Notes: generated from the letters alone by a model not told the origin. Shown: positions 4,668 to 31,653, counted from the stretch's first letter. The stretch is DNA of 64,000 nt from Planctomycetes bacterium UBA1146 (GCA_002311345.1 DCAA01000023.1:59494-123493), one strand, 5' to 3'. Numbers and translations are program-made.

Positions 4668-5349
4668 GCAGCCCCCTCGATTCGAGCCAGCGCTCGATCG
4701 ACGCGATGGACCCCTCACCGAGTCGATGGCCATCCGAATGCCAGTCCAATGTGACGTTGGCCCCGGATTGCGAGAGGATCCGCATCGATTCCCTCACCGG
4801 GTCTGGTTGCGTCAGGGGGTCATTTTCATCGTGGAGAAGCAGTACAGCAGGTAACTTTCCTGAGGTGAGTTCATCTTCGAGAAACTCGTGCTTGAGACGA
4901 GCAGAGGCGATGATGCAATTCGCGAACCGTTCTGGATGTCTGCAAGCGATGAATCCTGCCATATATCCACCCTGGCTGAAGCCGAGCAGTGTGGTTCTGG
5001 AACCATCGAGACCAGTGGAATCGAGAACCGTCTCGACGAGGCCCAGCAGATCCTTCTCTGACTTCTGCATCGAATTCAGGAAGCGTTGCTGGTCGCCGGT
5101 GTAGATGTACCAGGAATGCCCTTCACGGATCGTGTTGCGCTCCCTCACTTCGTGTCGGTAAGGGCCGTCAGGTGTCAACAGTGCCACTCCTCGCTCGCTG
5201 AGATGCTGGAGCAGGCGAGCCAGCCCGGACCCATCTTGGCCCATGCCGTGAAGTGCGACGAGGCAAGATGTTGGTTTGCCCTCGGGTGGGATCCATCGCC
5301 AGGCGACATCGTCCTCGAACTTGCGATGGTTGAGTTGAATCCTGTCCAG
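4660..5349 (-). CDS. Phospholipase/carboxylesterase-family alpha/beta hydrolase
   Basis: GFSQGG nucleophile elbow is present, and the LVALHGMGQDG oxyanion region spans the first ATG (5244). The 5' end is set at an in-frame CTG (5349) preceded by AGGAGG plus 5 nt. See findings. Confidence 0.65.
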   Translation of the reverse strand: MDRIQLNHRKFEDDVAWRWIPPEGKPTSCLVALHGMGQDGSGLARLLQHLSERGVALLTPDGPYRHEVRERNTIREGHSWYIYTGDQQRFLNSMQKSEKDLLGLVETVLDSTGLDGSRTTLLGFSQGGYMAGFIACRHPERFANCIIASARLKHEFLEDELTSGKLPAVLLLHDENDPLTQPDPVRESMRILSQSGANVTLDWHSDGHRLGEGSIASIERWLESRGLLG

Positions 5350-5778
5350 GAGATCCTCCTGTCGATACCCGTATGGAGATCGACTCTCTTGTAGAGAGTC
5401 TCGATTGTACGGTATCGCTCCGGTTGCCGGGAGAGCAGTTCCGATTGACGAAACCGAGCACGATAATAATTGGAGAGACTTCCCCTGTAAGAAGCGTCTT
5501 CTATATCGATGGCAGCAGGAAGGTGAGTGCGATGAGCCCTACACGTCTGAAATCGGATGTTCCTTCACCCAAATCGTGCCAGTCATCGATGCACTCCAGG
5601 TCGTCGATGAACACGCAGTCGCCTGTCCGGCGAACTTGAGTCGCGGCGATGATGTCATCGGGGCTCCACCGGCTTCGGCAAAAGAGGCACAGAACTGTGT
5701 AGAAGACGCTGGTCTCGACACTCTTACCTGGTACGCCGCAAACTCCGTTGACCTCCGCGTGGGGAAGGTAGTTTCTCT

Positions 5779-6612
5779 TCAGGGGCAGTTGGAGTAATTG
5801 GCGCAGCCGATTGCAGATTCTCCAGCGGGGTCTGCTCCACAGTCAGGCCAGGGGGCTGCCGGGGCAGCGCCATCGAGGAACTGGTGATTGATCAGATAGA
5901 TCACGTCACCGAGATCCACCGTGAAGTCGTTGTTGGCATCGGCAGCTGCACTGCAACCTGGAATGAGACCATCGGCAAAGAAGTAATTGATCAGGAATAT
6001 CGCGTCAGCCAGGTTGAGAGTCCCATCATCATTTCCATCTCCGCGAATGAACGCCACCGCATCGACGAAACACAAGGTGCCGGCCTGTAACTCTGGCATC
6101 GTTGAAATTCCGTCGATGGTCAAGATGTTATGAATAACCGGTTGCCCCATTCCGTTGACTGGACTGATGTCGGAACAACTTCCAATCAGGGCATTGTCAG
6201 CCACGACTTGCAGGGTGAAGCGAACGATCGAATTCTCGGTGCCTGGTGCTAATGTCTGGCCACTGAAGGGAGGACTGAAATCAAAGATCGCGGCGCATGC
6301 TGCCCATCCAATTCCAGGTTCGAAATTGTCATCGTAGGTCGAAGTGAAGAACTCGACCTCGTGTGGTGCCAGCAAAATCTCGATGTCCAGTCCACTGGTA
6401 TCTTCAGAGACGTGCGAGAAGATGTTGGAGTCCCAACTGATGGCGCTCTGGAAGCCCTGGATGTGGAGTTGATTGTTGAGTCGAACGATCGCCTCGGCAT
6501 GGGCACCAGGGATTGCCGTGGCGTCATCGATCCACATCAAATCCTGGGCCTGTGAGACGCTGGCGATAGACAAGACAGCGACGATGATGGCTATCACGTA
6601 GGAGTGACGCAT
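5779..6612 (-). CDS. Secreted protein A: one cohesin-like module plus a C-terminal dockerin-like module
   Basis: Signal peptide MRHSYVIAIIVAVLSIASVSQAQD. The module carries IQGFQSAISWD...AAIFDFSPPFSGQTL. The C-terminus has RGDGNDDGTLNLAD...ADANNDFTVDLGD...PWPDCGADP. Confidence 0.75.
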   Translation of the reverse strand: MRHSYVIAIIVAVLSIASVSQAQDLMWIDDATAIPGAHAEAIVRLNNQLHIQGFQSAISWDSNIFSHVSEDTSGLDIEILLAPHEVEFFTSTYDDNFEPGIGWAACAAIFDFSPPFSGQTLAPGTENSIVRFTLQVVADNALIGSCSDISPVNGMGQPVIHNILTIDGISTMPELQAGTLCFVDAVAFIRGDGNDDGTLNLADAIFLINYFFADGLIPGCSAAADANNDFTVDLGDVIYLINHQFLDGAAPAAPWPDCGADPAGESAIGCANYSNCP

Positions 6613-6719
6613 GTTTCCTCCTCTGAGAGGGGATTGTGAACCGTCGGTGCGGACGCAGGGGGGTCCTCAAACGATTCAGGGGATGTTGAGGTCGTTTCAG
6701 TAGAGCAGCAGCTGAAGGA

Positions 6720-8102
6720 TCAGCAACCGCTCGGGAGTACACAATCGAGCGTATCCTCGGAAGGATCGAGCCCACAGTTAAAGGGGCCGGGGGCTCCCGG
6801 TATCGGTCCATTCACGAAAAGGTAATTCAGCAAGAAGATGGAGTCCGAGATGTCAAGGCCACCATCGTCGTTGACATCAGCAGAATCAAAACAGGCAGGT
6901 TGATCTCCTGACACGAAGAGCCAGTTCATCACGAACAGGGCATCTGCCAGGTCGATGCTGGAATCTCCATTTGAATTGCCTCTAAGGAAACCCGGAGCAT
7001 CAAGGAATTCCACGATACCGTTCTCCAGTATCGGAGAGATGGAGAGCCCATCGAAGATCACGTAGTTGAGCGCTTGCCCCGAGGTGCAGTTTGGATTTGA
7101 CGGTGGGCACGAGGGGAGCAGGTAGGAATCGTCGAGAACGATTTCCGTTGTAGTTCCCAGCAGAGTCGGATCCGCAGGAGTCTGGAACTCGAGACGCAAG
7201 AGGCTCTGTCCATCTCCTCCTGGTAGGACCTGCCCTCCGAAGGGGGGCAGGAAATCGAAGATTGCAGCGAACGTTGCCAAACCGACTCCCGGTTCAACGG
7301 CTGGATCGAAGGCCGGATAGAAAAGTTCTATTCCTCCCTGGACTCCAGGGCCTCCGGGAAACAACGCATCCAGGAACAATCCTGAGTACCAGTCAGCGCC
7401 GGAAGCGGGTATCTGGAGGTCCAGGATGGTGTTGTCATAAGAGATCGCCACCTGGAATCCCTGGATCTCATCCTCGTGGTCATAGCGGAGCGTGGCAGTA
7501 ACCAGACTACCTGGAGTTGCGGCGATGCTACCGAAATAGAAACGGTGCAGGTTGTTGATGGTGAGAGATCCGTCAACCAGGGTCGGGATTATCGAAAAAC
7601 CGCCAGAAGAAAGCACGCTATCGATCGGTGGATCTCCCAGACCATTCACGAACTGAATCGGAATGGTAGCGGGGAGACTGATGGAACTGACGGAGAAATT
7701 CAATCTCATCAGGGCGTTCTGATCATCGGGAGAGGCCGGTAGCGTCGCCGGAGGTGTGCTCAAATCGCCATACGAGAAGATCACACCTGCAAGCAGGACA
7801 CCGGTAACGGAGTCGATGGAGATACCCGCAAAGTCGGGTTCCGCGCCCGATAGCAACCCGGAGACCGCGGTGTCCTGGAAATCGACTTCACTGAGGTTGA
7901 GGTGGATCGGGTTGTACTGGATTCCGACAGCGAAGCCTTCGATTCCTGAGTCATGGGTTGCACGAATGAAACAGAACACGTCTGAATCGCCGGCATTGGC
8001 GGCAATGTTGTCGATGCTGAGCACATCTGCAGCGCCAGCGGACTGCTGGAAAAGGCCACAGAGAACCGCCAGAATCATGAATCGGTTAAGGAAACCAAAC
8101 AT
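6720..8102 (-). CDS. Secreted protein B: two cohesin-like modules plus a dockerin-like module
   Basis: Signal peptide MFGFLNRFMILAVLCGLFQQSAGAADV. Two modules are seen (IEGFAVGIQYNP... and IQGFQVAISYDN...AAIFDFLPPFGGQVL). The C-terminus has RGNSNGDSSIDLAD...ADVNDDGGLDISD...FNCGLDPSEDTLDC. Confidence 0.75.
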   Translation of the reverse strand: MFGFLNRFMILAVLCGLFQQSAGAADVLSIDNIAANAGDSDVFCFIRATHDSGIEGFAVGIQYNPIHLNLSEVDFQDTAVSGLLSGAEPDFAGISIDSVTGVLLAGVIFSYGDLSTPPATLPASPDDQNALMRLNFSVSSISLPATIPIQFVNGLGDPPIDSVLSSGGFSIIPTLVDGSLTINNLHRFYFGSIAATPGSLVTATLRYDHEDEIQGFQVAISYDNTILDLQIPASGADWYSGLFLDALFPGGPGVQGGIELFYPAFDPAVEPGVGLATFAAIFDFLPPFGGQVLPGGDGQSLLRLEFQTPADPTLLGTTTEIVLDDSYLLPSCPPSNPNCTSGQALNYVIFDGLSISPILENGIVEFLDAPGFLRGNSNGDSSIDLADALFVMNWLFVSGDQPACFDSADVNDDGGLDISDSIFLLNYLFVNGPIPGAPGPFNCGLDPSEDTLDCVLPSGC

Positions 8103-8247
8103 CTCGAAAACTCCTCGCAGCGGACGTATCGGGGTACATCGACCGGATTCCCGGACGATTCCATCCTATCACCTCGAGGTATCCGATCCACATCCTGCCG
8201 ACCATGTCATGGGCACGCGATTTGCCGTGGATGGTCACTCACCCGGC

Positions 8248-8283
8248 AAAAAATGGACCCCGGAGGCGTGAACCTCCGGGGTC
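8248..8283 (-). terminator. Rho-independent terminator downstream of array gene C
   Basis: On the minus strand: GACCCCGGAGG-TTCACG-CCTCCGGGGTC, a perfect 11-bp stem with a 6-nt loop, followed by CA and TTTTTT. It lies 48 nt after the stop at 8332. Confidence 0.75.
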
Positions 8284-8331
8284 TCGAGTTCAATGCGAGG
8301 TTGATCTCGAATTTAGCTAGTCAGGTGTCGT

Positions 8332-9603
8332 TTACTGGTCGTCAGCGTCGCCGTCACAACCGATACCGTCACCTGTGGTCGGGTCGATTCCGAGGTCCGG
8401 GAACGGTGCCATCGGAGGAGCTCCACCAGCGAACTGGTAAGAGAATATCCAGACGGCGTCACCAACACTGATTTCACCATTGTCGTCCAGGTCACAGGAA
8501 TCAAGGCAGCCAGGTGTGGTGCCACCCTGGAAGAGGTACTGCAGGACAGAAATTCCGTCTGCGATGTTGACGAGTCCTCCATCGCTGTTGCAGTCGCCCC
8601 TGACAAAGGGATTGAAATCGACGATCTCGATATCGCCGTTGACGAGATTCGGAGTTTCGTTGTAATTCGCATCGACGATCTTATTGGTGATGGGAGGAGT
8701 TCCCGCCGACTCGACGAAGATGACAGGGGTGGTCAGCGGAGCTGTAGCTCCACCGAGATCTGCATTGACGTCGAATTGCAGGTTAAGAACTTCCTGGTTG
8801 TCACCAATTGGAATGTCCGTTGAAGTATCGAGGGCCATGATCAGGCCCGCGGCGATCTCGCCGGCTTCCAGGTTCTCTGACAGTGCGACGAATTCCGCTG
8901 AAGCCGCAACGCCCGAGGCCAGAACGCTGGTCAGGGTCATGAGAGACGGGTCGTATTGACCTGCGATCTGAAAACCATCGAGAGGACGCACCGTCGAGAT
9001 CAGGACCGGCAGGTTTGCGGTCTGACCCACGACGCCCAGCCCATGTCCGAAGATCAGGTAGTTGGGACTGTGGATCAGGAAAGTGGCTCCACTGGTGATC
9101 GGGTCTACGCTATTGCCGTTGATCACGAGCACGGTACTGACCGGGGGCGTTCCTGCGGTGCAGAAATCAACCCAGCATGATTGACCGACAGCAGCGAGAA
9201 CCTGGTAGTTCACATCGAGCATGCTGAAGTTCTGGACCTGGCTCAGGACCGCACAGCCGGTGAAGCAGATGACGACACCGGACATGACCGCATCGTCGGA
9301 CAGGATCGTGGTCTCGAAATCAGGCAAGGCGCCGTTTTTGACGGTACTGGCATCTGCTCCGAGTTGGGCACCAACGGGGATCATGCCCTCGTTATTGCAC
9401 AGGCTCAGGCTCCAGCCCTGAATTTCTGCTGGTTCCAGGACGTTCAACTGGGCGGTCGAGGTGAAGGTGTCTCCGCCGAACACGTCGCCACCGTCCATGA
9501 ACATCTCGAATGCAGGATTCTGGGCGAATCCAACGGTACCAACGCCGAAAATCAGGATGAGAACACACATCCTACAAATATTCTCGCGTATAGAGTTACG
9601 CAT
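8332..9603 (-). CDS. Secreted protein C: two cohesin-like modules (one of the QGWSLSL/CFTGCA subtype) plus a dockerin-like module
   Basis: ATG 9603 has GGAAGGAACGAG upstream and gives the signal peptide MRNSIRENICRMCVLILIFGVGTVGFAQ. The ORF-track start at 9804 overlaps the upstream gene. The C-terminus has RGDCNSDGGLVNIAD...CDLDDNGEISVGD. Confidence 0.75.
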   Translation of the reverse strand: MRNSIRENICRMCVLILIFGVGTVGFAQNPAFEMFMDGGDVFGGDTFTSTAQLNVLEPAEIQGWSLSLCNNEGMIPVGAQLGADASTVKNGALPDFETTILSDDAVMSGVVICFTGCAVLSQVQNFSMLDVNYQVLAAVGQSCWVDFCTAGTPPVSTVLVINGNSVDPITSGATFLIHSPNYLIFGHGLGVVGQTANLPVLISTVRPLDGFQIAGQYDPSLMTLTSVLASGVAASAEFVALSENLEAGEIAAGLIMALDTSTDIPIGDNQEVLNLQFDVNADLGGATAPLTTPVIFVESAGTPPITNKIVDANYNETPNLVNGDIEIVDFNPFVRGDCNSDGGLVNIADGISVLQYLFQGGTTPGCLDSCDLDDNGEISVGDAVWIFSYQFAGGAPPMAPFPDLGIDPTTGDGIGCDGDADDQ

Positions 9604-9694
9604 TACTCGTTCCTTCCTGTTGTCGGCTTCGAAGTGCCGACCAACCTCGCTATTTGGTCTTCCCCAACGTCTGGGGAAGTTGTTGCCTTTGTTA

Positions 9695-11545
9695 TTACGG
9701 CTGTGAGTCACAGCCAGTGTCGTCACTGACACAGAGTGGGAGCAGGTCTGCACTCGGATCGGGCCCATCGCTAAAGGGGCCCGGATCAGGCGGTGAATCG
9801 CCAAACTTGAACAACCAGTTCAAGACGAAAACAGAGTCTGCAAGGTTAATGATTCCATCGTCATTGCTGTCACAAGCATCCGAGCACAGGATCGGTAATC
9901 CTGAGAACTGGGCACCGATCCCTGTAGCAACGTCTGCAAGATCGACCTTGTCGTCACTATTGCAGTCGCCTCTCTGGAAGATTTCCTGAGGCACAACGAA
10001 AACGCTCGTATCGATCCGTTCGAAGTCTTGAACCGATCGATAGTCGATGACCACGTTGTTGTAGAGGTAGACACTACCGTTTCCGTTGATGTTGTCGCAG
10101 AAGTTGATTTCTTGGAGTTCGTTGCACTCGGCGGTGTCATCCACGGTGACGTTGATGGTGCCGATCAAGAGATTCTCATCGGTCGGAGGTAGGGTTTGTC
10201 CCTCGAAAGGTGGCAAGGCATCGAGCAGGATCGCAAGGATCAATTCACCAGTTTCGCCATCGGAACAGTCATCGTCGACCTGATGGTTGATGTACTCGGC
10301 ACCGACCGATTGAACGATCGAGTCCTCGAGGGTGAACGTGCCTTCTTCCAGGGTGAGGTCGCAGTCATAACAGACGGTGATCGTCAAACCCTGGATTTCA
10401 TCTTCGGGATCTGAGTAGTAGAAGCGGAGCAATCCAGTCTGGCCGTGGTAGGCGTAGTTTCCGACTTCTTCATCGAATTCGGTCTGGGCGGTGATGATCG
10501 TATCGTCTTCAGGAGGAGGTTCGATCGCCTGACAGGTGAAAGAACCGCTCTGAAGCGAAGGAAACAGCGAAAGTCCTCCGACCACGATCACGTTCTCCAG
10601 CGGAGGATTTCCGATGAAACCATTGATCAGGGTCAGTGGAGTTACCAGGTCATTCTCGGGCAAGTAGATGATCTGATTGCAGCTGTATCGATAGGTAGCG
10701 ATGTGATTATCGACGCCTATCGCGATTGTCTGACCATCAAAGGGTGGTTGGAAGTCCAGCACCACTCCGATGGTGCCACCGTTCGAGTACAGGTTCGAGA
10801 CCTCGAATTCCGCGCCCACCTCTTCCGTCACAGTTCCTGAGAGGGTTATTTCTTGCAGAGTCAACTCCTCCGCTCCGTGAGCGACCGCGACGACAAAACC
10901 CTGGACCGGTCCAGAACTATTCGAGAGCAAGATCCGGGCATCGCCAATCGCGAGGCCATCCGATGTTGCGGATGAGTCTTCAATCAAAATGGAGTCGGGT
11001 GGCGGTGGATTGATGGTCACTGTCGCGTCATTGAGAACGAGACCCTCGGCAACACCGATGGAAAGCCCGCCCTGGACGATCAAGTTGTCCAGTGGTGGTG
11101 AGTTGAACACGCCATCCTGGAATTGAAGAGAGGTAGTGATGGGGTTCGGACTGATCATGGTGGGAGTGAAACTGAGCAGAGCGATGCTGGTGCCCGAGCC
11201 CGCTGGGATCATCTGTCCCTCGTATGGGCTGAAGGCATCGAGGATCACACCCAGGGTTAGACCTCCAGGTAAGATCTCGGCCGCGATCAGTTCGACTCCG
11301 ACAGTTTCCACGTCGGTCCCTTCTACTGTGATGTTCACTACACTGAGCAAGGAGTTGTCCACCGCGATGGCGAGCACATATCCTTGCGTCCCGGTGTCAC
11401 TATCGAGGCTTACCGTCGTCGATACCGACGATAGACCCTGAGTATTGGCATCCGCGATGCTGAGCGATTGCTGGGCTCCGACCGGGAAGGTCAGTGCCAG
11501 AACCGTCCACGCAGCGACGAACACCTGCCTGAGGCAGGTACCCAT
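9695..11545 (-). CDS. Secreted protein D: three cohesin-like modules plus a dockerin-like module
   Basis: ATG 11545 has GAGGAGTGGAG upstream and gives the signal peptide MGTCLRQVFVAAWTVLALTFPVGAQQ. Three repeats carry ILDAFSPYEGQMI, VLDFQPPFDGQTI and LLDALPPFEGQTL. The C-terminus has RGDCNSDDKVDLAD...CDSNDDGIINLAD. Confidence 0.75.
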   Translation of the reverse strand: MGTCLRQVFVAAWTVLALTFPVGAQQSLSIADANTQGLSSVSTTVSLDSDTGTQGYVLAIAVDNSLLSVVNITVEGTDVETVGVELIAAEILPGGLTLGVILDAFSPYEGQMIPAGSGTSIALLSFTPTMISPNPITTSLQFQDGVFNSPPLDNLIVQGGLSIGVAEGLVLNDATVTINPPPPDSILIEDSSATSDGLAIGDARILLSNSSGPVQGFVVAVAHGAEELTLQEITLSGTVTEEVGAEFEVSNLYSNGGTIGVVLDFQPPFDGQTIAIGVDNHIATYRYSCNQIIYLPENDLVTPLTLINGFIGNPPLENVIVVGGLSLFPSLQSGSFTCQAIEPPPEDDTIITAQTEFDEEVGNYAYHGQTGLLRFYYSDPEDEIQGLTITVCYDCDLTLEEGTFTLEDSIVQSVGAEYINHQVDDDCSDGETGELILAILLDALPPFEGQTLPPTDENLLIGTINVTVDDTAECNELQEINFCDNINGNGSVYLYNNVVIDYRSVQDFERIDTSVFVVPQEIFQRGDCNSDDKVDLADVATGIGAQFSGLPILCSDACDSNDDGIINLADSVFVLNWLFKFGDSPPDPGPFSDGPDPSADLLPLCVSDDTGCDSQP

Positions 11546-11682
11546 CTCCACTCCTCTGCCCCCTCGGGGCTCCCCGCACTTCCTCTTCCCCCCCACGGTG
11601 TGTTTCCACCGCGAGACTCTTCCCCTCCAGCCTGCTGCGGGGCAGGACGGAACGGTCCCCCCGAGACCCGGAGGGCTCTACT

Positions 11683-11710
11683 AGTTTATTGACAATGATT
11701 AACAAGTCAA
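11683..11710 (-). promoter_or_regulatory. Candidate sigma70-like promoter upstream of array gene D
   Basis: Minus strand reads TTGACT, a 16-nt spacer, then TAAACT, inside an unusually AT-rich patch just after the stop of gene E. This is a motif match only. Confidence 0.25.
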
Positions 11711-11720
11711 TCGGATTGGA

Positions 11721-13781
11721 TTAACAATCGATATCGTCAAGGAAGGTAGGATCAGGTCCTGGAAGGGGATAGGGCGGCGGAGGAACTGCAGATCCAGTAA
11801 ATAGGAACAGTAATGTATATATGGGGTCAGATATGTCCAAACGCCCATCATCGTTGGCATCGCAGGCGTCCTGGCACGCTGGAGTGGTTCCATCGGCGTA
11901 CAGCCAGGTGGCCGTGAAGATCGCATCGGCGAGGTTCAGGGAGCCACTTCCATCCGAATCACCGCGGAGGAAATCCGGGCCATCACTGACGATCAGCAGC
12001 CGGAACAGGGTATCCGTGATGTTCCCCGCGACCACGATCTCGCTGCAGACGATCTCGAAACCTGTCACTGCATTGTTGAGGGTCGTCGGTGAGTTGCCCA
12101 TCGCCGTGAGGGTCAGGTCAAAATTGAGCGGGAATCCGAAGCTGGTGAACTGGCTGACGCTTGTGATATCACCCACGTTATCGACACCACTCAGCAGAGT
12201 GCCATCGGCCATGGAGGCGATTCCACCTCCCAGGATGAGACCTGATGTCTGCGGTGGAGTGATCGTTCCCAGAGGGTTCCCTTCCGAGCCCGCCAGTGCT
12301 TCCATCCGAAGGACGGTCACCGGGTCTGATCCGCTATCAAGGAGAAGCCAGTCATCAGCAATGGAGTCATAACTGATGGCAGTCACATCTGAAGTGCTGA
12401 CGGGAAAAGATGAGAGCACCACACCAGTCAAGGGTTCGACGAATGTGACCAGGCTACTGTTGACCCGGCTCACCAGCAGCAGATCCATGGTGGAGTTGTA
12501 TCCAATCCCGCGCAGATTGACCAAGCCAGTATCGATGGTGCGTTTCAGGGTCAGATTCGAGTCCAGTACCTGGATCTCACCGGAGAAGGACTCTGTTACG
12601 TAGAGATCATCCAACTCGGCGTCATAGGCGAGATCTCTGGGCCGAACTCCCTGGAAGGGGACATATGCCACCAGTCCGCCAGGGCCATTGATGACGGTGC
12701 AGCTCGAAGAGGCGATCTCGCTGCCGACGACTCCCTGAACCAGGTATTGATACTGGGTACCGCTGGAGGTAGTGGAATCGATCCATGAACTGGCAGAACC
12801 CGGTAGTGTGTCGATGATGGCGCCGTTTCGGGTGATTCGGATCAGGTTGTAGAATCCACCTGCTCCGGGTCCACAGTTACGCCAGGTGAGGGTACTGGAT
12901 CCTTCTCCATCGGTGCTACAGAAGAGGTCTGCTGGAGCTGTGACCAACGGTTGTACGACATCAATTCGCAACAGGTCAGTCGCTGTATTGGTGTAGGCAT
13001 AGGAAGAATTCCCATCACGCGCGAATCCCAGGATTGCGCCATTGGTACCCTGAGGCAACGTGACATGGTTGCAGTCCAGTTGGCCCGTCGAGATGGAAAC
13101 AGATAGCAATTCAGCGACAGTGGCATCGAACACATCTCCGTAGGTGAAATCGAGGAAGCCCTCGGTACCGTCCAGGCGGAATTCGATTCCAACTCCGTAA
13201 CGTACGTCGTCGCCTGGGATCGGAAGGGTAGATATCACATCTCCGGTTTCCGGATCGATTTCTACAGCAACCTGGCTGACCGTATCACGAAGCCAGAGGT
13301 ATCCGGTGGTGCTGTCGAAGGCCAGACCTGATGCACTCCCGTTGATGCTGAAGGGGAGTGGAGCACCGATCTGGGTTCCCTGGTCGTCCATCTGAACCAA
13401 CTCGAAGGAGGTGGAGTTGAGGATCCAGAAAGTGTCGGTAGTCGGAGAGTATGCAATTCCGGAACACTGAGGCTGGAACAATGGAGCCACTGCAGGACCG
13501 ACCGGATGATCGATGATGTTGGCCAATGCGAGGGAGGGGGGAGATAGGGTGTTGTTGAAGACGCAGATTTTGCCGCTGGTGGCGTCGATGGTCCAGACCG
13601 TTCCATCGGAGGTATTGACGGTCACATCGGAACCGCTTGGATTGACTCCGCACAGAGAGGTCTGCGCTTCGATGGAGCCATTTTGTCCCTCGATTGGTGC
13701 GCTCAGAAGAAGTGAGATGGTGCTGAACACTGCGATACGCAGTAGGTCAAATGACTGAAGTGTGGGGCACAAGTTCCTCAT
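11721..13781 (-). CDS. Secreted protein E: beta-propeller-like repeats plus an Ig/Fn3-like segment plus a dockerin-like module (no cohesin-like module)
   Basis: ATG 13781 has GGAGAGG upstream. A signal/anchor sequence LLRIAVFSTISLLLSAPIEGQ follows. The body has repetitive strand-rich segments. The C-terminus has RGDSDGSGSLNLAD...CDANDDGRLDISD...PGPDPTFLDDIDC. Confidence 0.7.
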   Translation of the reverse strand: MRNLCPTLQSFDLLRIAVFSTISLLLSAPIEGQNGSIEAQTSLCGVNPSGSDVTVNTSDGTVWTIDATSGKICVFNNTLSPPSLALANIIDHPVGPAVAPLFQPQCSGIAYSPTTDTFWILNSTSFELVQMDDQGTQIGAPLPFSINGSASGLAFDSTTGYLWLRDTVSQVAVEIDPETGDVISTLPIPGDDVRYGVGIEFRLDGTEGFLDFTYGDVFDATVAELLSVSISTGQLDCNHVTLPQGTNGAILGFARDGNSSYAYTNTATDLLRIDVVQPLVTAPADLFCSTDGEGSSTLTWRNCGPGAGGFYNLIRITRNGAIIDTLPGSASSWIDSTTSSGTQYQYLVQGVVGSEIASSSCTVINGPGGLVAYVPFQGVRPRDLAYDAELDDLYVTESFSGEIQVLDSNLTLKRTIDTGLVNLRGIGYNSTMDLLLVSRVNSSLVTFVEPLTGVVLSSFPVSTSDVTAISYDSIADDWLLLDSGSDPVTVLRMEALAGSEGNPLGTITPPQTSGLILGGGIASMADGTLLSGVDNVGDITSVSQFTSFGFPLNFDLTLTAMGNSPTTLNNAVTGFEIVCSEIVVAGNITDTLFRLLIVSDGPDFLRGDSDGSGSLNLADAIFTATWLYADGTTPACQDACDANDDGRLDISDPIYTLLFLFTGSAVPPPPYPLPGPDPTFLDDIDC

Positions 13782-30538: not shown

Positions 30539-30777
30539 TCCCTACGGCCCAGGTGCGCTCGACGTCGAGGTTTACGGGAGGACAAATCCCGTGCTCCTGT
30601 GCGACCTGGGATACAATTCAGTGCTATGCTACAGGCTGCTCCTGAGCAAGTGATGACAGCAGGCCGGTGATGAGAACCGGATCGACCAACGCGATACTAC
30701 TCGAACTGCTATCGAGCAGTTCCTTGCTCGATCTCCCCGCTTCCCGATCATTCCTGAAGTGGGCTCAGCGGTTCGAA

Positions 30778-31653
30778 ATGCGGTGTGAAATGATCCGAGC
30801 GCGAATGCGAATTGTGACCCTGGTGGGGCTCTTCTGCGGTGGTTTCTGGGTGCCGTCGGATGCACAGGTTCTGTTCGAATACCAACCGACCCCTACCGAC
30901 ATCCCTTACGACCTGACCAGCGGGGAGGGGAGCGGCTCGGTGAGCATTTTCAACGTCGAGCTGCCAGCGAGCCTCGGGTTCCCGAACAATGTGCAGGGAT
31001 GGAGCCTGAGCCTGGCGCATGATCCCTCCATCCTCGAAGCCATCGAAATCGACCAGGGATCTTATATCCAGACCGTCAATAACGGAAACCCTCCGGATTT
31101 CTGGCAGACCTCCATCGAAGCGAACGGCATCACCATCGGCTCTGTTTATTGTTTCACCGGCTGCGCAAGTTGCGTCTACGAGATTCCGAAGGAGATCGCT
31201 GTCATCGGCTACCAGACCGTCGCGGCAACGCTTGCCGGGGACCTCGACGGGGAGACGACGACTCTCGTCTTCACACCGGTGGGCAACCCCCCGGTGACGA
31301 ATGTGATGGTGGTGAGTGGCACCTCCAACCCCGTCAACGGACAGGACGGGACCGTGAATCTCATCCCGGTCCTGGAACCGGAAATTGTCCGGGGTGACGC
31401 GAATGCGAACGGAGTCATCGAGCCTCTCGTGGATGGAATCACCGCCCTCAACTATCTGTTCGTGGGCGGGAGCACCGTCTCCTGTCTCGATACCCTCGAC
31501 TGCAACGACGATGCATCGGTCAACCTCGCTGATCCGATCATGCTACTGACGTGGGGCTTCGCGATGGGGTCTCCATTGCCGGCGCCGTTCCCCGATTGCG
31601 GAGCCGATCCGACCGATGATCTCCTGTCTTGCGATGCGAGTGGGTGCCCCTGA
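30778..31653 (+). CDS. Secreted protein F: one cohesin-like module (QGWSLSL/CFTGCA subtype) plus a dockerin-like module
   Basis: Signal peptide ...RIVTLVGLFCGGFWVPSDAQ. The module carries VQGWSLSLAHD...VYCFTGCAS...GNPPVTNV. The C-terminus has RGDANANGVIEPLVD...LDCNDDASVNLAD...PFPDCGADPTDDLLSCDASGCP. The start is one of ATG 30778, 30790 or 30805. Confidence 0.7.
   Translation: MRCEMIRARMRIVTLVGLFCGGFWVPSDAQVLFEYQPTPTDIPYDLTSGEGSGSVSIFNVELPASLGFPNNVQGWSLSLAHDPSILEAIEIDQGSYIQTVNNGNPPDFWQTSIEANGITIGSVYCFTGCASCVYEIPKEIAVIGYQTVAATLAGDLDGETTTLVFTPVGNPPVTNVMVVSGTSNPVNGQDGTVNLIPVLEPEIVRGDANANGVIEPLVDGITALNYLFVGGSTVSCLDTLDCNDDASVNLADPIMLLTWGFAMGSPLPAPFPDCGADPTDDLLSCDASGCP

What the first reader, a model, noticed from the sequence alone, without database searches (positions are those of the whole stretch)
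5779..13781. Tandem array of five secreted cohesin-like/dockerin-like proteins with no catalytic domains
Five consecutive minus-strand genes (A-E) each begin with a signal peptide. Each ends in the same module of about 85 aa, with two EF-hand-like loops such as GDGNDDGTLNLAD / ADANNDFTVDLGD, spaced as in type I dockerins. Upstream, A has 1, B has 2, C has 2 and D has 3 copies of a beta-rich module of about 150 aa. These modules share a landmark I-(Q/E)-G-(F/W)-(Q/A/S)-x-x-(I/L) strand and motifs like (F/L)DFxPPFxGQ. I read them as cohesin-like. Putting cohesin-like and dockerin-like parts in the same polypeptides, repeated across paralogues with no enzyme domains, suggests a self-assembling Ca-dependent surface scaffold or matrix rather than a cellulosome. 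Non-cellulosomal cohesin/dockerin modules are known to be widespread. I do not recognise this dedicated paralogue array as a described system.
Basis: partly seen in the sequence, partly recalled or inferred. Interest (0 to 1): 0.75.

Follow-up and report, generated by a model that had tools for sequence, protein, structure and literature searches.

The report
Planctomycete cohesin–dockerin scaffold gene cluster
Five neighbouring genes of an uncultured marine planctomycete encode secreted proteins built from the two snap-together modules known from cellulosomes (cohesin and dockerin). The cluster is old and conserved, and it probably builds a protein scaffold unrelated to cellulose breakdown.

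Summary
Five minus-strand genes (A-E, 5779-13781) and a sixth gene F (30667-31653, +) each end in a about 90-aa dockerin module. A, B, C, D and F carry 1, 2, 2, 3 and 1 cohesin-like modules.

- **Module identity.** Pfam Cohesin and Dockerin_1 hit near threshold. Window-built profiles find only cohesins and type I dockerins in PDB. An AlphaFold model of B matches solved cohesins (TM 0.80-0.84).
- **Protein E.** It has no cohesin. It is an NHL-type beta-propeller, an FN3-like domain, a second propeller and a dockerin.
- **Conservation.** The array is syntenic in every relative examined, and all nine cohesin and five dockerin types are separately conserved.
- **Older core.** Distant Planctomycetota keep a two-gene core of an E-type and a B-type gene.
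- **Wider family.** The cohesin family has 2,359 representative clusters. 139 of the best 150 read (Coh)n-Doc, and none has an anchor module.
- **Other carriers.** The same Cys-clasped, proline-tailed dockerin also tags haem peroxidases, cupredoxins, PKD and FG-GAP proteins, among others.

Best reading: a non-cellulosomal scaffoldin/adaptor cluster assembling by Ca-dependent cohesin-dockerin binding, a new variant of a known kind. A pure self-assembling matrix is possible but unproven. No binding was tested.

The parts
5779..6612 (-). Gene A (277 aa): signal peptide, one cohesin module A1 (6058-6546), dockerin (5782-6057).
   Evidence: ORF. Pfam Dockerin_1 scores 23.5 bits against a cut-off of 22.9. 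The custom cohesin HMM scores 97 bits. Orthologs are 53-75% identical in eight genomes.
6720..8102 (-). Gene B (460 aa): signal peptide, cohesins B1 (7548-8030) and B2 (6996-7547), dockerin (6723-6995).
   Evidence: AlphaFold model with pLDDT 79. Foldseek matches the cohesin dyad 3l8q at E = 1e-14 and single cohesins at TM 0.80-0.84. The isolated dockerin scores 24.8 bits on Pfam Dockerin_1. B-type genes pair with E-type genes in distant genomes.
8256..8283 (-). Terminator-like hairpin between genes C and B (12-bp stem, 9 G-C pairs, T-run).
   Evidence: Consensus scan. This is a pattern match only. It suggests at least two transcription units (E-D-C and B-A).
8332..9603 (-). Gene C (423 aa from the likely start MRNSIREN): signal peptide, cohesins C1 (9055-9522, divergent and F-like) and C2 (8611-9054), dockerin (8335-8610).
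   Evidence: Pfam Cohesin scores 24.8 bits against a cut-off of 24.1 on C2. HMM results. Ortholog lengths are 412-432 aa.
9695..11545 (-). Gene D (616 aa from the likely start MGTCLRQ): signal peptide, cohesins D1 (11003-11473), D2 (10517-11002) and D3 (9992-10483), dockerin (9698-9991).
   Evidence: Three cohesin-HMM hits plus a dockerin hit of 90 bits. Pfam finds nothing. Orthologs are 67-80% identical.
11721..13781 (-). Gene E (686 aa): signal peptide, beta-propeller 1 (about 12957-13673), FN3-like domain (about 12687-12932), beta-propeller 2 (about 11994-12674), dockerin (11724-11984). No cohesin.
   Evidence: AlphaFold model with pLDDT 75. Foldseek finds tandem propellers. NHL repeat hits in 12 of 18 aligned family members. 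PDB profile hits are YncE at 3e-7 and Fn3-like 3mpc at 4e-4. Dockerin HMM scores 128 bits.
30667..31653 (+). Gene F (ORF 328 aa; likely start at M38-M47, nt 30778-30805): signal peptide, one cohesin module (30865-31386, closest to C1), dockerin (31387-31650). It is unlinked to the array and lies between mutY-like and chorismate synthase genes.
   Evidence: Dockerin HMM scores 90 bits. Cohesin HMM gives E = 2e-8. ORF and neighbours. No Pfam hit.

Best explanation
The array is the core scaffoldin-like gene cluster of a non-cellulosomal cohesin-dockerin system of uncultured marine Planctomycetota. The closest genome is labelled 'Planctomycetes bacterium UBA1146'.

**Components.** All six proteins are exported by Sec signal peptides. 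A-D, and the unlinked F, are adaptor scaffoldins. Each is a rigid string of 1-3 cohesin beta-sandwiches joined with almost no linker. Each is followed directly by one type-I-like dockerin with two Ca-binding F-hands. E is the non-scaffold subunit: an NHL-type double beta-propeller with an FN3-like domain and its own dockerin.

**Proposed assembly (inferred).** Each dockerin binds, Ca-dependently, a particular cohesin of another subunit. This would give a defined branched hetero-oligomer with E as a ligand-binding head. Spare cohesins would recruit other secreted proteins carrying the same dockerin type.

**Specific prediction.** E-type and B-type genes stay adjacent in very distant genomes. 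I therefore predict that E's dockerin binds a B cohesin.

**Shown:** module identities, architecture, conservation, gene linkage, and the wider dockerin-tagged protein set.

**Inferred:** Ca-dependent binding, the pairings, the cellular location and the biological role.
For: **Module identity**
- Pfam Dockerin_1 and Cohesin hit at or just under threshold.
- A profile of the six dockerins finds type I dockerins in PDB, best 2y3n_B at E = 1e-6, aligned over both F-hands.
- All cohesin-profile PDB hits at E <= 0.5 are cohesins, best 3l8q at E = 2e-4.
- The AlphaFold model of B matches cohesin structures at TM 0.80-0.84.

**Conservation**
- The same five genes, with the same lengths and order, sit between AsnRS and MetK in relatives that are 53-94% identical.
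- A genome only 31% identical in B keeps all five types one-to-one.

**Specificity signal**
- Identity within a module type is 57-81%. Between types it is 14-47%.
- The nearest neighbour is always of the same type (40/40 dockerins, 64/64 cohesins).
- The dockerin helices carry type-specific conserved residues.

**Gene linkage**
- Two-gene loci of an E-type and a B-type gene occur in five distant genomes. The E-type dockerin there is 52-62% identical to the window's.

**Wider system**
- The cohesin family has 2,359 representative clusters at E <= 1e-3. Of the best 150, 139 read (Coh)n-Doc.
- 113 dockerin-only ORFs lie in the 80 loci kept. They carry varied domains, including enzymes.
- The dockerin sits at the N-terminus in some of these proteins. 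It is therefore not a C-terminal sorting tag.
Against: - No binding was tested, and no multimer prediction was possible.
- No cohesin-only or anchor-bearing 'root' scaffoldin was found among the best 150 family members. The 11 without a dockerin are truncated or frameshifted. How, or whether, the complex is fixed to the cell is unknown.
- Only 2 of 9 cohesin modules give any Pfam Cohesin hit. A matching fold does not prove dockerin binding.
- The near-zero linkers are unlike the flexible linkers of cellulosomal scaffoldins.
- The census of dockerin-tagged proteins comes from related genomes and from only four loci of the closest genome. It is not a complete genome survey.
Confidence: 0.55

Rival explanations
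1. Closed self-assembling matrix or fibre. The (Coh)n-Doc proteins bind only one another. A would give head-to-tail chains, B, C and D would give branch points, and E would cap chains. The result would be a Ca-dependent coat, fibre or gel in the periplasm or on the surface, with no recruitment of other proteins.
For: Every cohesin-bearing protein in the family also carries exactly one dockerin, and no root or anchor protein is seen. The array has more cohesins (8, or 9 with F) than dockerins (5, or 6 with F), which permits branching. The short rigid linkers suit a structural material. All types are strictly co-conserved.
Against: Many other secreted proteins carry the same dockerin variant, some in the closest genome itself (L028, L044, L068). 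They would be expected to compete for the same cohesins. Nine distinct, separately conserved cohesin types look more like a set of specific sockets than like a repetitive polymer.
Confidence: 0.2
2. Adhesin-type surface proteins in which the modules do not pair with each other. The cohesin-like beta-sandwiches would bind external ligands such as glycans or particles. The dockerin-like module would be only a Ca-stabilised, disulfide-clasped domain that attaches its carrier to an envelope component.
For: The cohesin modules are very far from characterised cohesins: 12-18% identity to PDB hits and a Pfam hit for only 2 of 9. Larger family members fuse them to adhesin-like Big_5, FG-GAP, SdrD_B and choice-of-anchor domains. 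The dockerin has a conserved Cys and Pro tail absent from classical dockerins.
Against: Cohesin modules and this dockerin co-occur almost obligatorily (139 of 150). An E-type dockerin protein stays linked to a B-type cohesin protein across distant genomes. Both facts are what partner modules would show. The dockerin works at either end of proteins, like classical dockerins.
Confidence: 0.15
3. Intramolecular latch. Each protein's own dockerin folds back onto its adjacent cohesin, giving closed monomers. The spare cohesins, if any, would do something else.
For: There is essentially no linker between the last cohesin and the dockerin in all types. The pTM of 0.63 for the three-module B model hints at a fairly fixed relative arrangement.
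Against: E has a dockerin but no cohesin, and so do the 113 dockerin-only ORFs. Their dockerins must have partners in trans or none at all. The coordinates needed to check for a contact were not available.
Confidence: 0.05

Closest known systems
Cellulosomal adaptor scaffoldins and their sca gene clusters (e.g. Ruminococcus flavefaciens ScaA/ScaC, Acetivibrio cellulolyticus ScaA/ScaB)
   Same: Secreted proteins made of one or more cohesins plus one dockerin, encoded by several tandem genes. The fold of the window's B modules matches these cohesins, with the 3l8q dyad as best hit. The dockerin aligns to type I dockerins over both F-hands. The gene-cluster comparison rests on my own knowledge of the cellulosome literature.
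   Different: No CBM, and no SLH or sortase anchor. None of the Pfam-scanned dockerin-tagged proteins has a glycoside hydrolase domain. There are no flexible Pro/Thr linkers. The dockerin has an invariant linker Cys, a C-terminal Cys and a P-x-A-P-x-P...G-x-D-P tail. The host is a Gram-negative-type planctomycete.
'Planctosome' hypothesis for freshwater Nemodlikiaceae (Andrei et al. 2019, ISME J, PMC6461901)
   Same: A cohesin/dockerin system in Planctomycetes, proposed not to act on cellulose, with adaptor proteins that carry both modules. P-domain (proprotein convertase) and lamin-tail-domain proteins carrying this window's dockerin type do occur in other Planctomycetota (L061, L082).
   Different: That model has a 2,210-aa LTD-anchored protein with one cohesin, a dockerin-HYR-cohesin adaptor and M12B/M14 peptidases. 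None of these is in the array. The array has four multi-cohesin proteins, an NHL double propeller and no identified anchor.
Archaeal non-cellulosomal cohesin-dockerin proteins (Archaeoglobus fulgidus; ANME scaffoldin-like proteins, PMC9012536)
   Same: Proteins with one dockerin and up to five cohesins in organisms that do not degrade cellulose. Their function is unknown and is suggested to be extracellular assembly.
   Different: A different domain of life and a different sequence family. No conserved five-gene array, E-type partner or Cys/Pro-tailed dockerin has been reported there.
NCBIfam NF041540, GC-type dockerin domain-anchored protein
   Same: A dockerin-like terminal domain with Cys near the end. 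It is the only curated model other than Pfam Dockerin_1 that picks up the module.
   Different: Scores are 10.7-20.7 bits against a cut-off of 29, and only the F-hand core aligns. This is not the same subfamily.

Membership tests
Cohesin domain (Pfam PF00963) | Match to the family HMM at or above the gathering score | tested here: inconclusive
   C2 scores 24.8 bits against a cut-off of 24.1. B2 scores 15.1 bits. Only 2 of 9 modules hit at E <= 1. All PDB hits of the window-built profile at E <= 0.5 are cohesins.
Cohesin domain (Pfam PF00963) | Nine-stranded beta-sandwich (jelly-roll) cohesin fold | tested here: met
   Predicted only. The AlphaFold model of B (pLDDT about 90 over most of both modules) matches 1aoh, 6kge, 3ul4 and 2vn5 at TM 0.77-0.84, and the 3l8q dyad at E = 1e-14. 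Other modules were not modelled but are homologous.
Cohesin domain (Pfam PF00963) | Binds a dockerin | not testable with these tools
   No multimer prediction or experiment was available.
Dockerin type I (Pfam PF00404) | Match to the family HMM at or above the gathering score | tested here: met
   A scores 23.5 and isolated B scores 24.8 against a cut-off of 22.9. Five of six modules hit at E <= 1. The profile matches PDB type I dockerins at 1e-6 to 2e-4.
Dockerin type I (Pfam PF00404) | Two duplicated segments, each a 12-residue Ca-binding loop (D/N at 1, 3, 5, 9, 12) followed by a helix | tested here: met
   Read directly from the alignments. Helices are predicted at B residues 385-397 and 418-429. 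C has a one-residue insertion in loop 1, and E has Ser at loop 1 position 5.
Dockerin type I (Pfam PF00404) | Ca-dependent folding and cohesin binding | not testable with these tools
   Needs biochemistry.
Cellulosome (system) | Dockerin-bearing glycoside hydrolases or other CAZymes as the docked subunits | tested here: not met
   None of the roughly 30 dockerin-tagged proteins scanned with Pfam has a GH, CE, PL or CBM family hit. E is an NHL propeller. This is a sample, not a whole genome.
Cellulosome (system) | Anchoring scaffoldin (SLH or sortase signal) and a substrate-binding CBM on a scaffoldin | tested here: not met
   There is no such domain in A-F. There is none in the best 150 cohesin-family proteins or the eight largest of them.
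'Planctosome' as drawn by Andrei et al. 2019 | LTD-anchored P-domain protein with a cohesin, a dockerin-HYR-cohesin adaptor, and dockerin-bearing M12B/M14 peptidases | tested here: not met
   None of these domains is in the six window proteins. LTD and P-domain proteins with this dockerin type exist in other genomes, so a relationship at the level of the wider system stays open.
NCBIfam NF041540 GC-type dockerin | HMM score at or above 29 bits | tested here: not met
   The best score is 20.7 bits, for the family consensus. Window modules score 10.7-12.3 bits.

The most novel reading that the evidence does not exclude
Planctomycetota may have a lineage-wide extracellular or periplasmic assembly code that nobody has annotated. 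A few ancient, mutually specific cohesin and dockerin types would polymerise (Coh)n-Doc proteins into a defined branched lattice without any membrane anchor. An E-type double-propeller subunit and B-type cohesins would form its oldest core. This lattice would be a structural component of the planctomycete envelope or surface, onto which redox enzymes, lectin-like proteins and toxins are plugged.
Probability: 0.2. Interest if true: 0.75.

Novelty: new variant of a known kind. Interest (0 to 1): 0.5.

Why it matters
- **Beyond cellulosomes.** Cohesin-dockerin pairing is the best-studied natural 'protein Lego', but it is understood almost only in cellulose-degrading Firmicutes. Here a large family of (cohesin)n-dockerin proteins is essentially unannotated and named only 'hypothetical protein'. 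It has 2,359 representative clusters at 50% identity.
- **Taxonomic spread.** It is found widely in Planctomycetota. A five-gene cluster is conserved across deep divergence, and a wide set of non-CAZyme proteins carries the same dockerin.
- **A testable system.** It offers nine cohesin and six dockerin types whose pairings can be measured directly, with a specific first prediction (E dockerin to a B cohesin). This could turn the speculative 'planctosome' idea into something testable.
- **Biology.** It may explain how these abundant, uncultured ocean bacteria organise their secreted proteins.
- **Engineering.** The disulfide-clasped, linker-free modules could also supply new orthogonal parts for protein-scaffold engineering.

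Tried and rejected
- **Genome-collection scan with the six-dockerin alignment.** I used the B-family alignment instead, which picked up dockerins through the CxD[AS][AST]DxNDD pattern.
- **Last word-indexed homolog search, run with the dockerin profile.** It returned almost only 75-172-aa gene fragments from short contigs. It showed the module is common in marine metagenomes but gave no view of which proteins carry it.
- **Aligning 65 dockerin-only ORFs for a one-call Pfam census.** The tool failed. I scanned 29 representatives in three calls instead.
- **Exact-sequence look-up of F from M38.** It found nothing, so F's annotated start and its conservation in relatives remain unknown. No F ortholog lies in the fetched loci.
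- **NCBIfam.** No family reaches its threshold. The GC-type dockerin family is rejected.
- **C-terminal sorting signal (PEP-CTERM or T9SS-CTD-like).** Rejected, because the same module occurs directly after the signal peptide in several proteins.
- **Recent tandem amplification or concerted evolution.** Rejected, because each module type is separately conserved.
- **Horizontal transfer island.** Unlikely. GC content is about 0.55, like the rest of the window, and the position among housekeeping genes is fixed.
- **Rfam and tRNA scans of the window.** Nothing found.
- **Intramolecular cohesin-dockerin contact in the B model.** Could not be checked, because only per-residue confidence and secondary structure are returned.
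- **Literature.** Searches for 'GC-type dockerin', for dockerin plus Planctomycetota, and for 'planctosome' found no description of this cluster. The Peer et al. 2009 review was not held.
Full report
**1. What is in the sequence**

The region holds five co-directional minus-strand ORFs. The starts of C, D and E were trimmed to the methionines that match ortholog lengths.

| Gene | Coordinates | Length |
|---|---|---|
| A | 5779-6612 | 277 aa |
| B | 6720-8102 | 460 aa |
| C | 8332-9603 | 423 aa |
| D | 9695-11545 | 616 aa |
| E | 11721-13781 | 686 aa |

- Each gene opens with a Sec-type signal peptide. This is read from the sequence, as no predictor was available.
- All-against-all blastp shows a shared C-terminal module in all five (E = 1e-12 to 1e-23). 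It also shows repeated N-terminal modules in A-D.
- An HMM of the C-terminal module finds exactly six copies in the six-frame translation of the window, at 90-134 bits.
- The sixth copy is in gene F (30667-31653, +), which lies between a mutY-like gene and chorismate synthase.
- A cohesin-module HMM finds 1, 2, 2, 3 and 1 copies in A, B, C, D and F, and none in E.
- Adjacent modules abut with almost no linker.
- GC content is the same as in the rest of the window.
- A strong terminator-like hairpin lies between C and B.

**2. What the modules are**

*Dockerin*
- Pfam Dockerin_1 reaches threshold for A (23.5 bits) and for isolated B (24.8 bits), against a cut-off of 22.9. It hits five of six modules at E <= 1.
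- The six-module profile finds type I dockerins in PDB, with 2y3n_B at 1e-6 and CelS at 2e-5. The alignment runs across both Ca-binding segments.
- Both loops carry D/N at positions 1, 3, 5, 9 and 12, and each is followed by a predicted helix.
- The module is nevertheless a distinct variant, judged from 120 metagenomic fragments and 198 modules from genomic loci:
  - The Cys in the inter-repeat linker is present in 99%.
  - A Cys near the C-terminus is present in 82-85%.
  - A second Cys pair occurs in 30-50%.
  - A P-x-A-P-x-P...G-x-D-P tail follows the last helix.
- NCBIfam's GC-type dockerin model does not reach its threshold.

*Cohesin*
- Pfam Cohesin passes only for C2 (24.8 bits against 24.1), and it touches only two of nine modules.
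- All PDB hits of the nine-module profile at E <= 0.5 are cohesins.
- The AlphaFold model of B has mean pLDDT 79, and about 90 over most of both beta-sandwiches.
- That model matches the A. cellulolyticus cohesin dyad at E = 1e-14. It matches single type I cohesins at TM 0.77-0.84.

*Protein E*
- The model (pLDDT 75) shows a beta-propeller, an FN3-like sandwich, a second beta-propeller and then the dockerin.
- Foldseek finds only generic tandem propellers.
- NHL repeats hit in 12 of the 18 aligned family members, SdiA-regulated in 6 and SGL in 3.
- The PDB profile hits are YncE (3e-7) and a clostridial Fn3-like module (4e-4).
- No catalytic family is detected, but propellers of this class can be enzymes.

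**3. Conservation**

- The closest genome found is a MAG labelled Planctomycetes bacterium UBA1146, with B 94% identical. NCBI lists it as unclassified Planctomycetota.
- The five genes occur in the same order and with the same sizes in every relative examined. B is 57-84% identical in these, and the array always lies between asparaginyl-tRNA synthetase and the abhydrolase/MetK side.
- I cut the arrays of eight genomes into modules:
  - Identity within a module type is 57-81%.
  - Identity between types is 14-47%.
  - Every module's nearest neighbour is of its own type (40/40 dockerins, 64/64 cohesins).
- The paralogues are therefore old and individually maintained, with no concerted evolution.
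- Each dockerin type has its own conserved residues on the two helices. Partner specificity would produce this pattern. That reading is an inference.
- A genome only 31% identical in B (L019) still has all five types one-to-one.
- Five more distant genomes keep only two adjacent genes: an E-type protein followed by a B-type Coh-Coh-Doc protein. One of them is a closed 9.18-Mb chromosome, and one is a MAG whose name suggests an anaerobic digester. The E-type dockerin there is 52-62% identical to the window's.
- The E+B pair looks like the ancestral core.

**4. The wider system**

- The cohesin profile finds 2,359 representative clusters at E <= 1e-3 among 1.84 billion representatives, and 202 at E <= 1e-30.
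- Of the best 150, 139 read (Coh)n-Doc with this dockerin type.

| Architecture | Proteins |
|---|---|
| CCCD | 66 |
| CCD | 55 |
| CCCCD | 11 |
| Other dockerin-bearing forms (up to seven cohesins) | 7 |

- The 11 proteins without a dockerin are truncated or frameshifted.
- No cohesin-only or anchor-bearing protein appears.
- Larger members add Big_5 plus FG-GAP, choice-of-anchor I, or SdrD_B domains at the N-terminus.
- Where sources name these proteins at all, the name is almost always 'hypothetical protein'.
- In the 80 loci kept, my HMMs found 113 dockerin-only ORFs, falling into 65 sequence clusters.
- Domains found on proteins with this dockerin type in the Pfam samples:
  - PKD and FG-GAP
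  - P-domain plus C-type lectin
  - DUF1800
  - DHOR and CCP_MauG di-haem peroxidases
  - cupredoxin
  - LVIVD propellers
  - a galactose-binding-like domain
  - LTD plus CotH
  - beta-helix/NosD
  - RHS/teneurin-like shells
- In several of these proteins the dockerin directly follows the signal peptide instead of ending the protein.
- The closest genome itself has at least three further loci with such proteins (L028, L044, L068).

**5. Interpretation**

- The evidence fits best a non-cellulosomal scaffoldin/adaptor cluster.
- A-D and F would offer specific cohesin sockets, and each would plug into another socket through its own dockerin.
- E would be a conserved docked subunit, probably on B.
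- Remaining sockets could hold other dockerin-tagged secreted proteins.
Its strongest point is that no root or anchor protein exists and every cohesin protein is itself dockerin-tagged.
- Two lesser rivals also cannot be excluded without binding data or coordinates: modules that do not pair at all, and an intramolecular latch.

**6. Relation to known systems**

- Polypeptides with both cohesins and a dockerin are standard for cellulosomal adaptor scaffoldins, and so are tandem scaffoldin genes (my own knowledge).
- Scaffoldin-like proteins occur in ANME archaea (PMC9012536).
- A 'planctosome' was proposed for freshwater Planctomycetes (PMC6461901).
- The kind is therefore known. The following appear to be undescribed:
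  - this particular family and its Cys/Pro-tailed dockerin;
  - the linker-free architecture;
  - the absence of any anchor;
  - the conserved five-gene array with its E+B core;
  - the set of non-CAZyme proteins carrying the dockerin.
- Literature searches found nothing on them.
- I rate it a new variant of a known kind, of moderate interest, with clear and inexpensive decisive experiments.

Noticed in passing
window 5315-5743 (+): Degraded remnant of a 1-Cys peroxiredoxin gene. It is 39% identical to residues 83-213 of the intact gene that sits at this position (between gene A and the abhydrolase gene) in most relatives. The N-terminal catalytic part is gone. The closest fetched relative (L009) also lacks the gene, so this looks like a lineage-specific loss.
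   Followed up: partly
window 30667-31653 (+): Sixth cohesin-dockerin gene (F), unlinked to the array and sitting among housekeeping genes (mutY-like, chorismate synthase). Its cohesin is closest to C1 (30% identity). No ortholog was among the fetched loci, and its annotated start could not be confirmed.
   Followed up: partly
L025-L028, L033, L037, L040: A second conserved locus in the same clade, including the closest genome (L028). It holds a roughly 1,000-1,150-aa dockerin protein with no Pfam hit, and about 2 kb downstream a roughly 710-750-aa protein with a PKD domain, one cohesin and a dockerin.
   Followed up: partly
L025, L051, L083 (Bacillota MAG 7); L031 (Dehalococcoidia); L036 (Nanoarchaeota); L088 (Proteobacteria): A few contigs carrying this planctomycete-type dockerin or cohesin family are labelled as other phyla. 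The 'Bacillota MAG 7' contigs share the clade's second locus. Mislabelling or binning error seems more likely than transfer, but this was not checked.
   Followed up: no
L078:3631-9273 (+): A 1,881-aa dockerin protein containing about ten copies of the FN3-like module found in the middle of E (hits to E-profile positions about 280-365).
   Followed up: no
L017:4531-6777 (+): In one relative the position of the three-cohesin gene D is taken by what looks like a second, split E-like gene: an N-terminal propeller ORF plus a C-terminal propeller-dockerin ORF. This would be a duplication or frameshift variant of the array.
   Followed up: no
window 1-64000: No tRNA, tmRNA or Rfam family match at gathering thresholds anywhere in the window.
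   Followed up: yes
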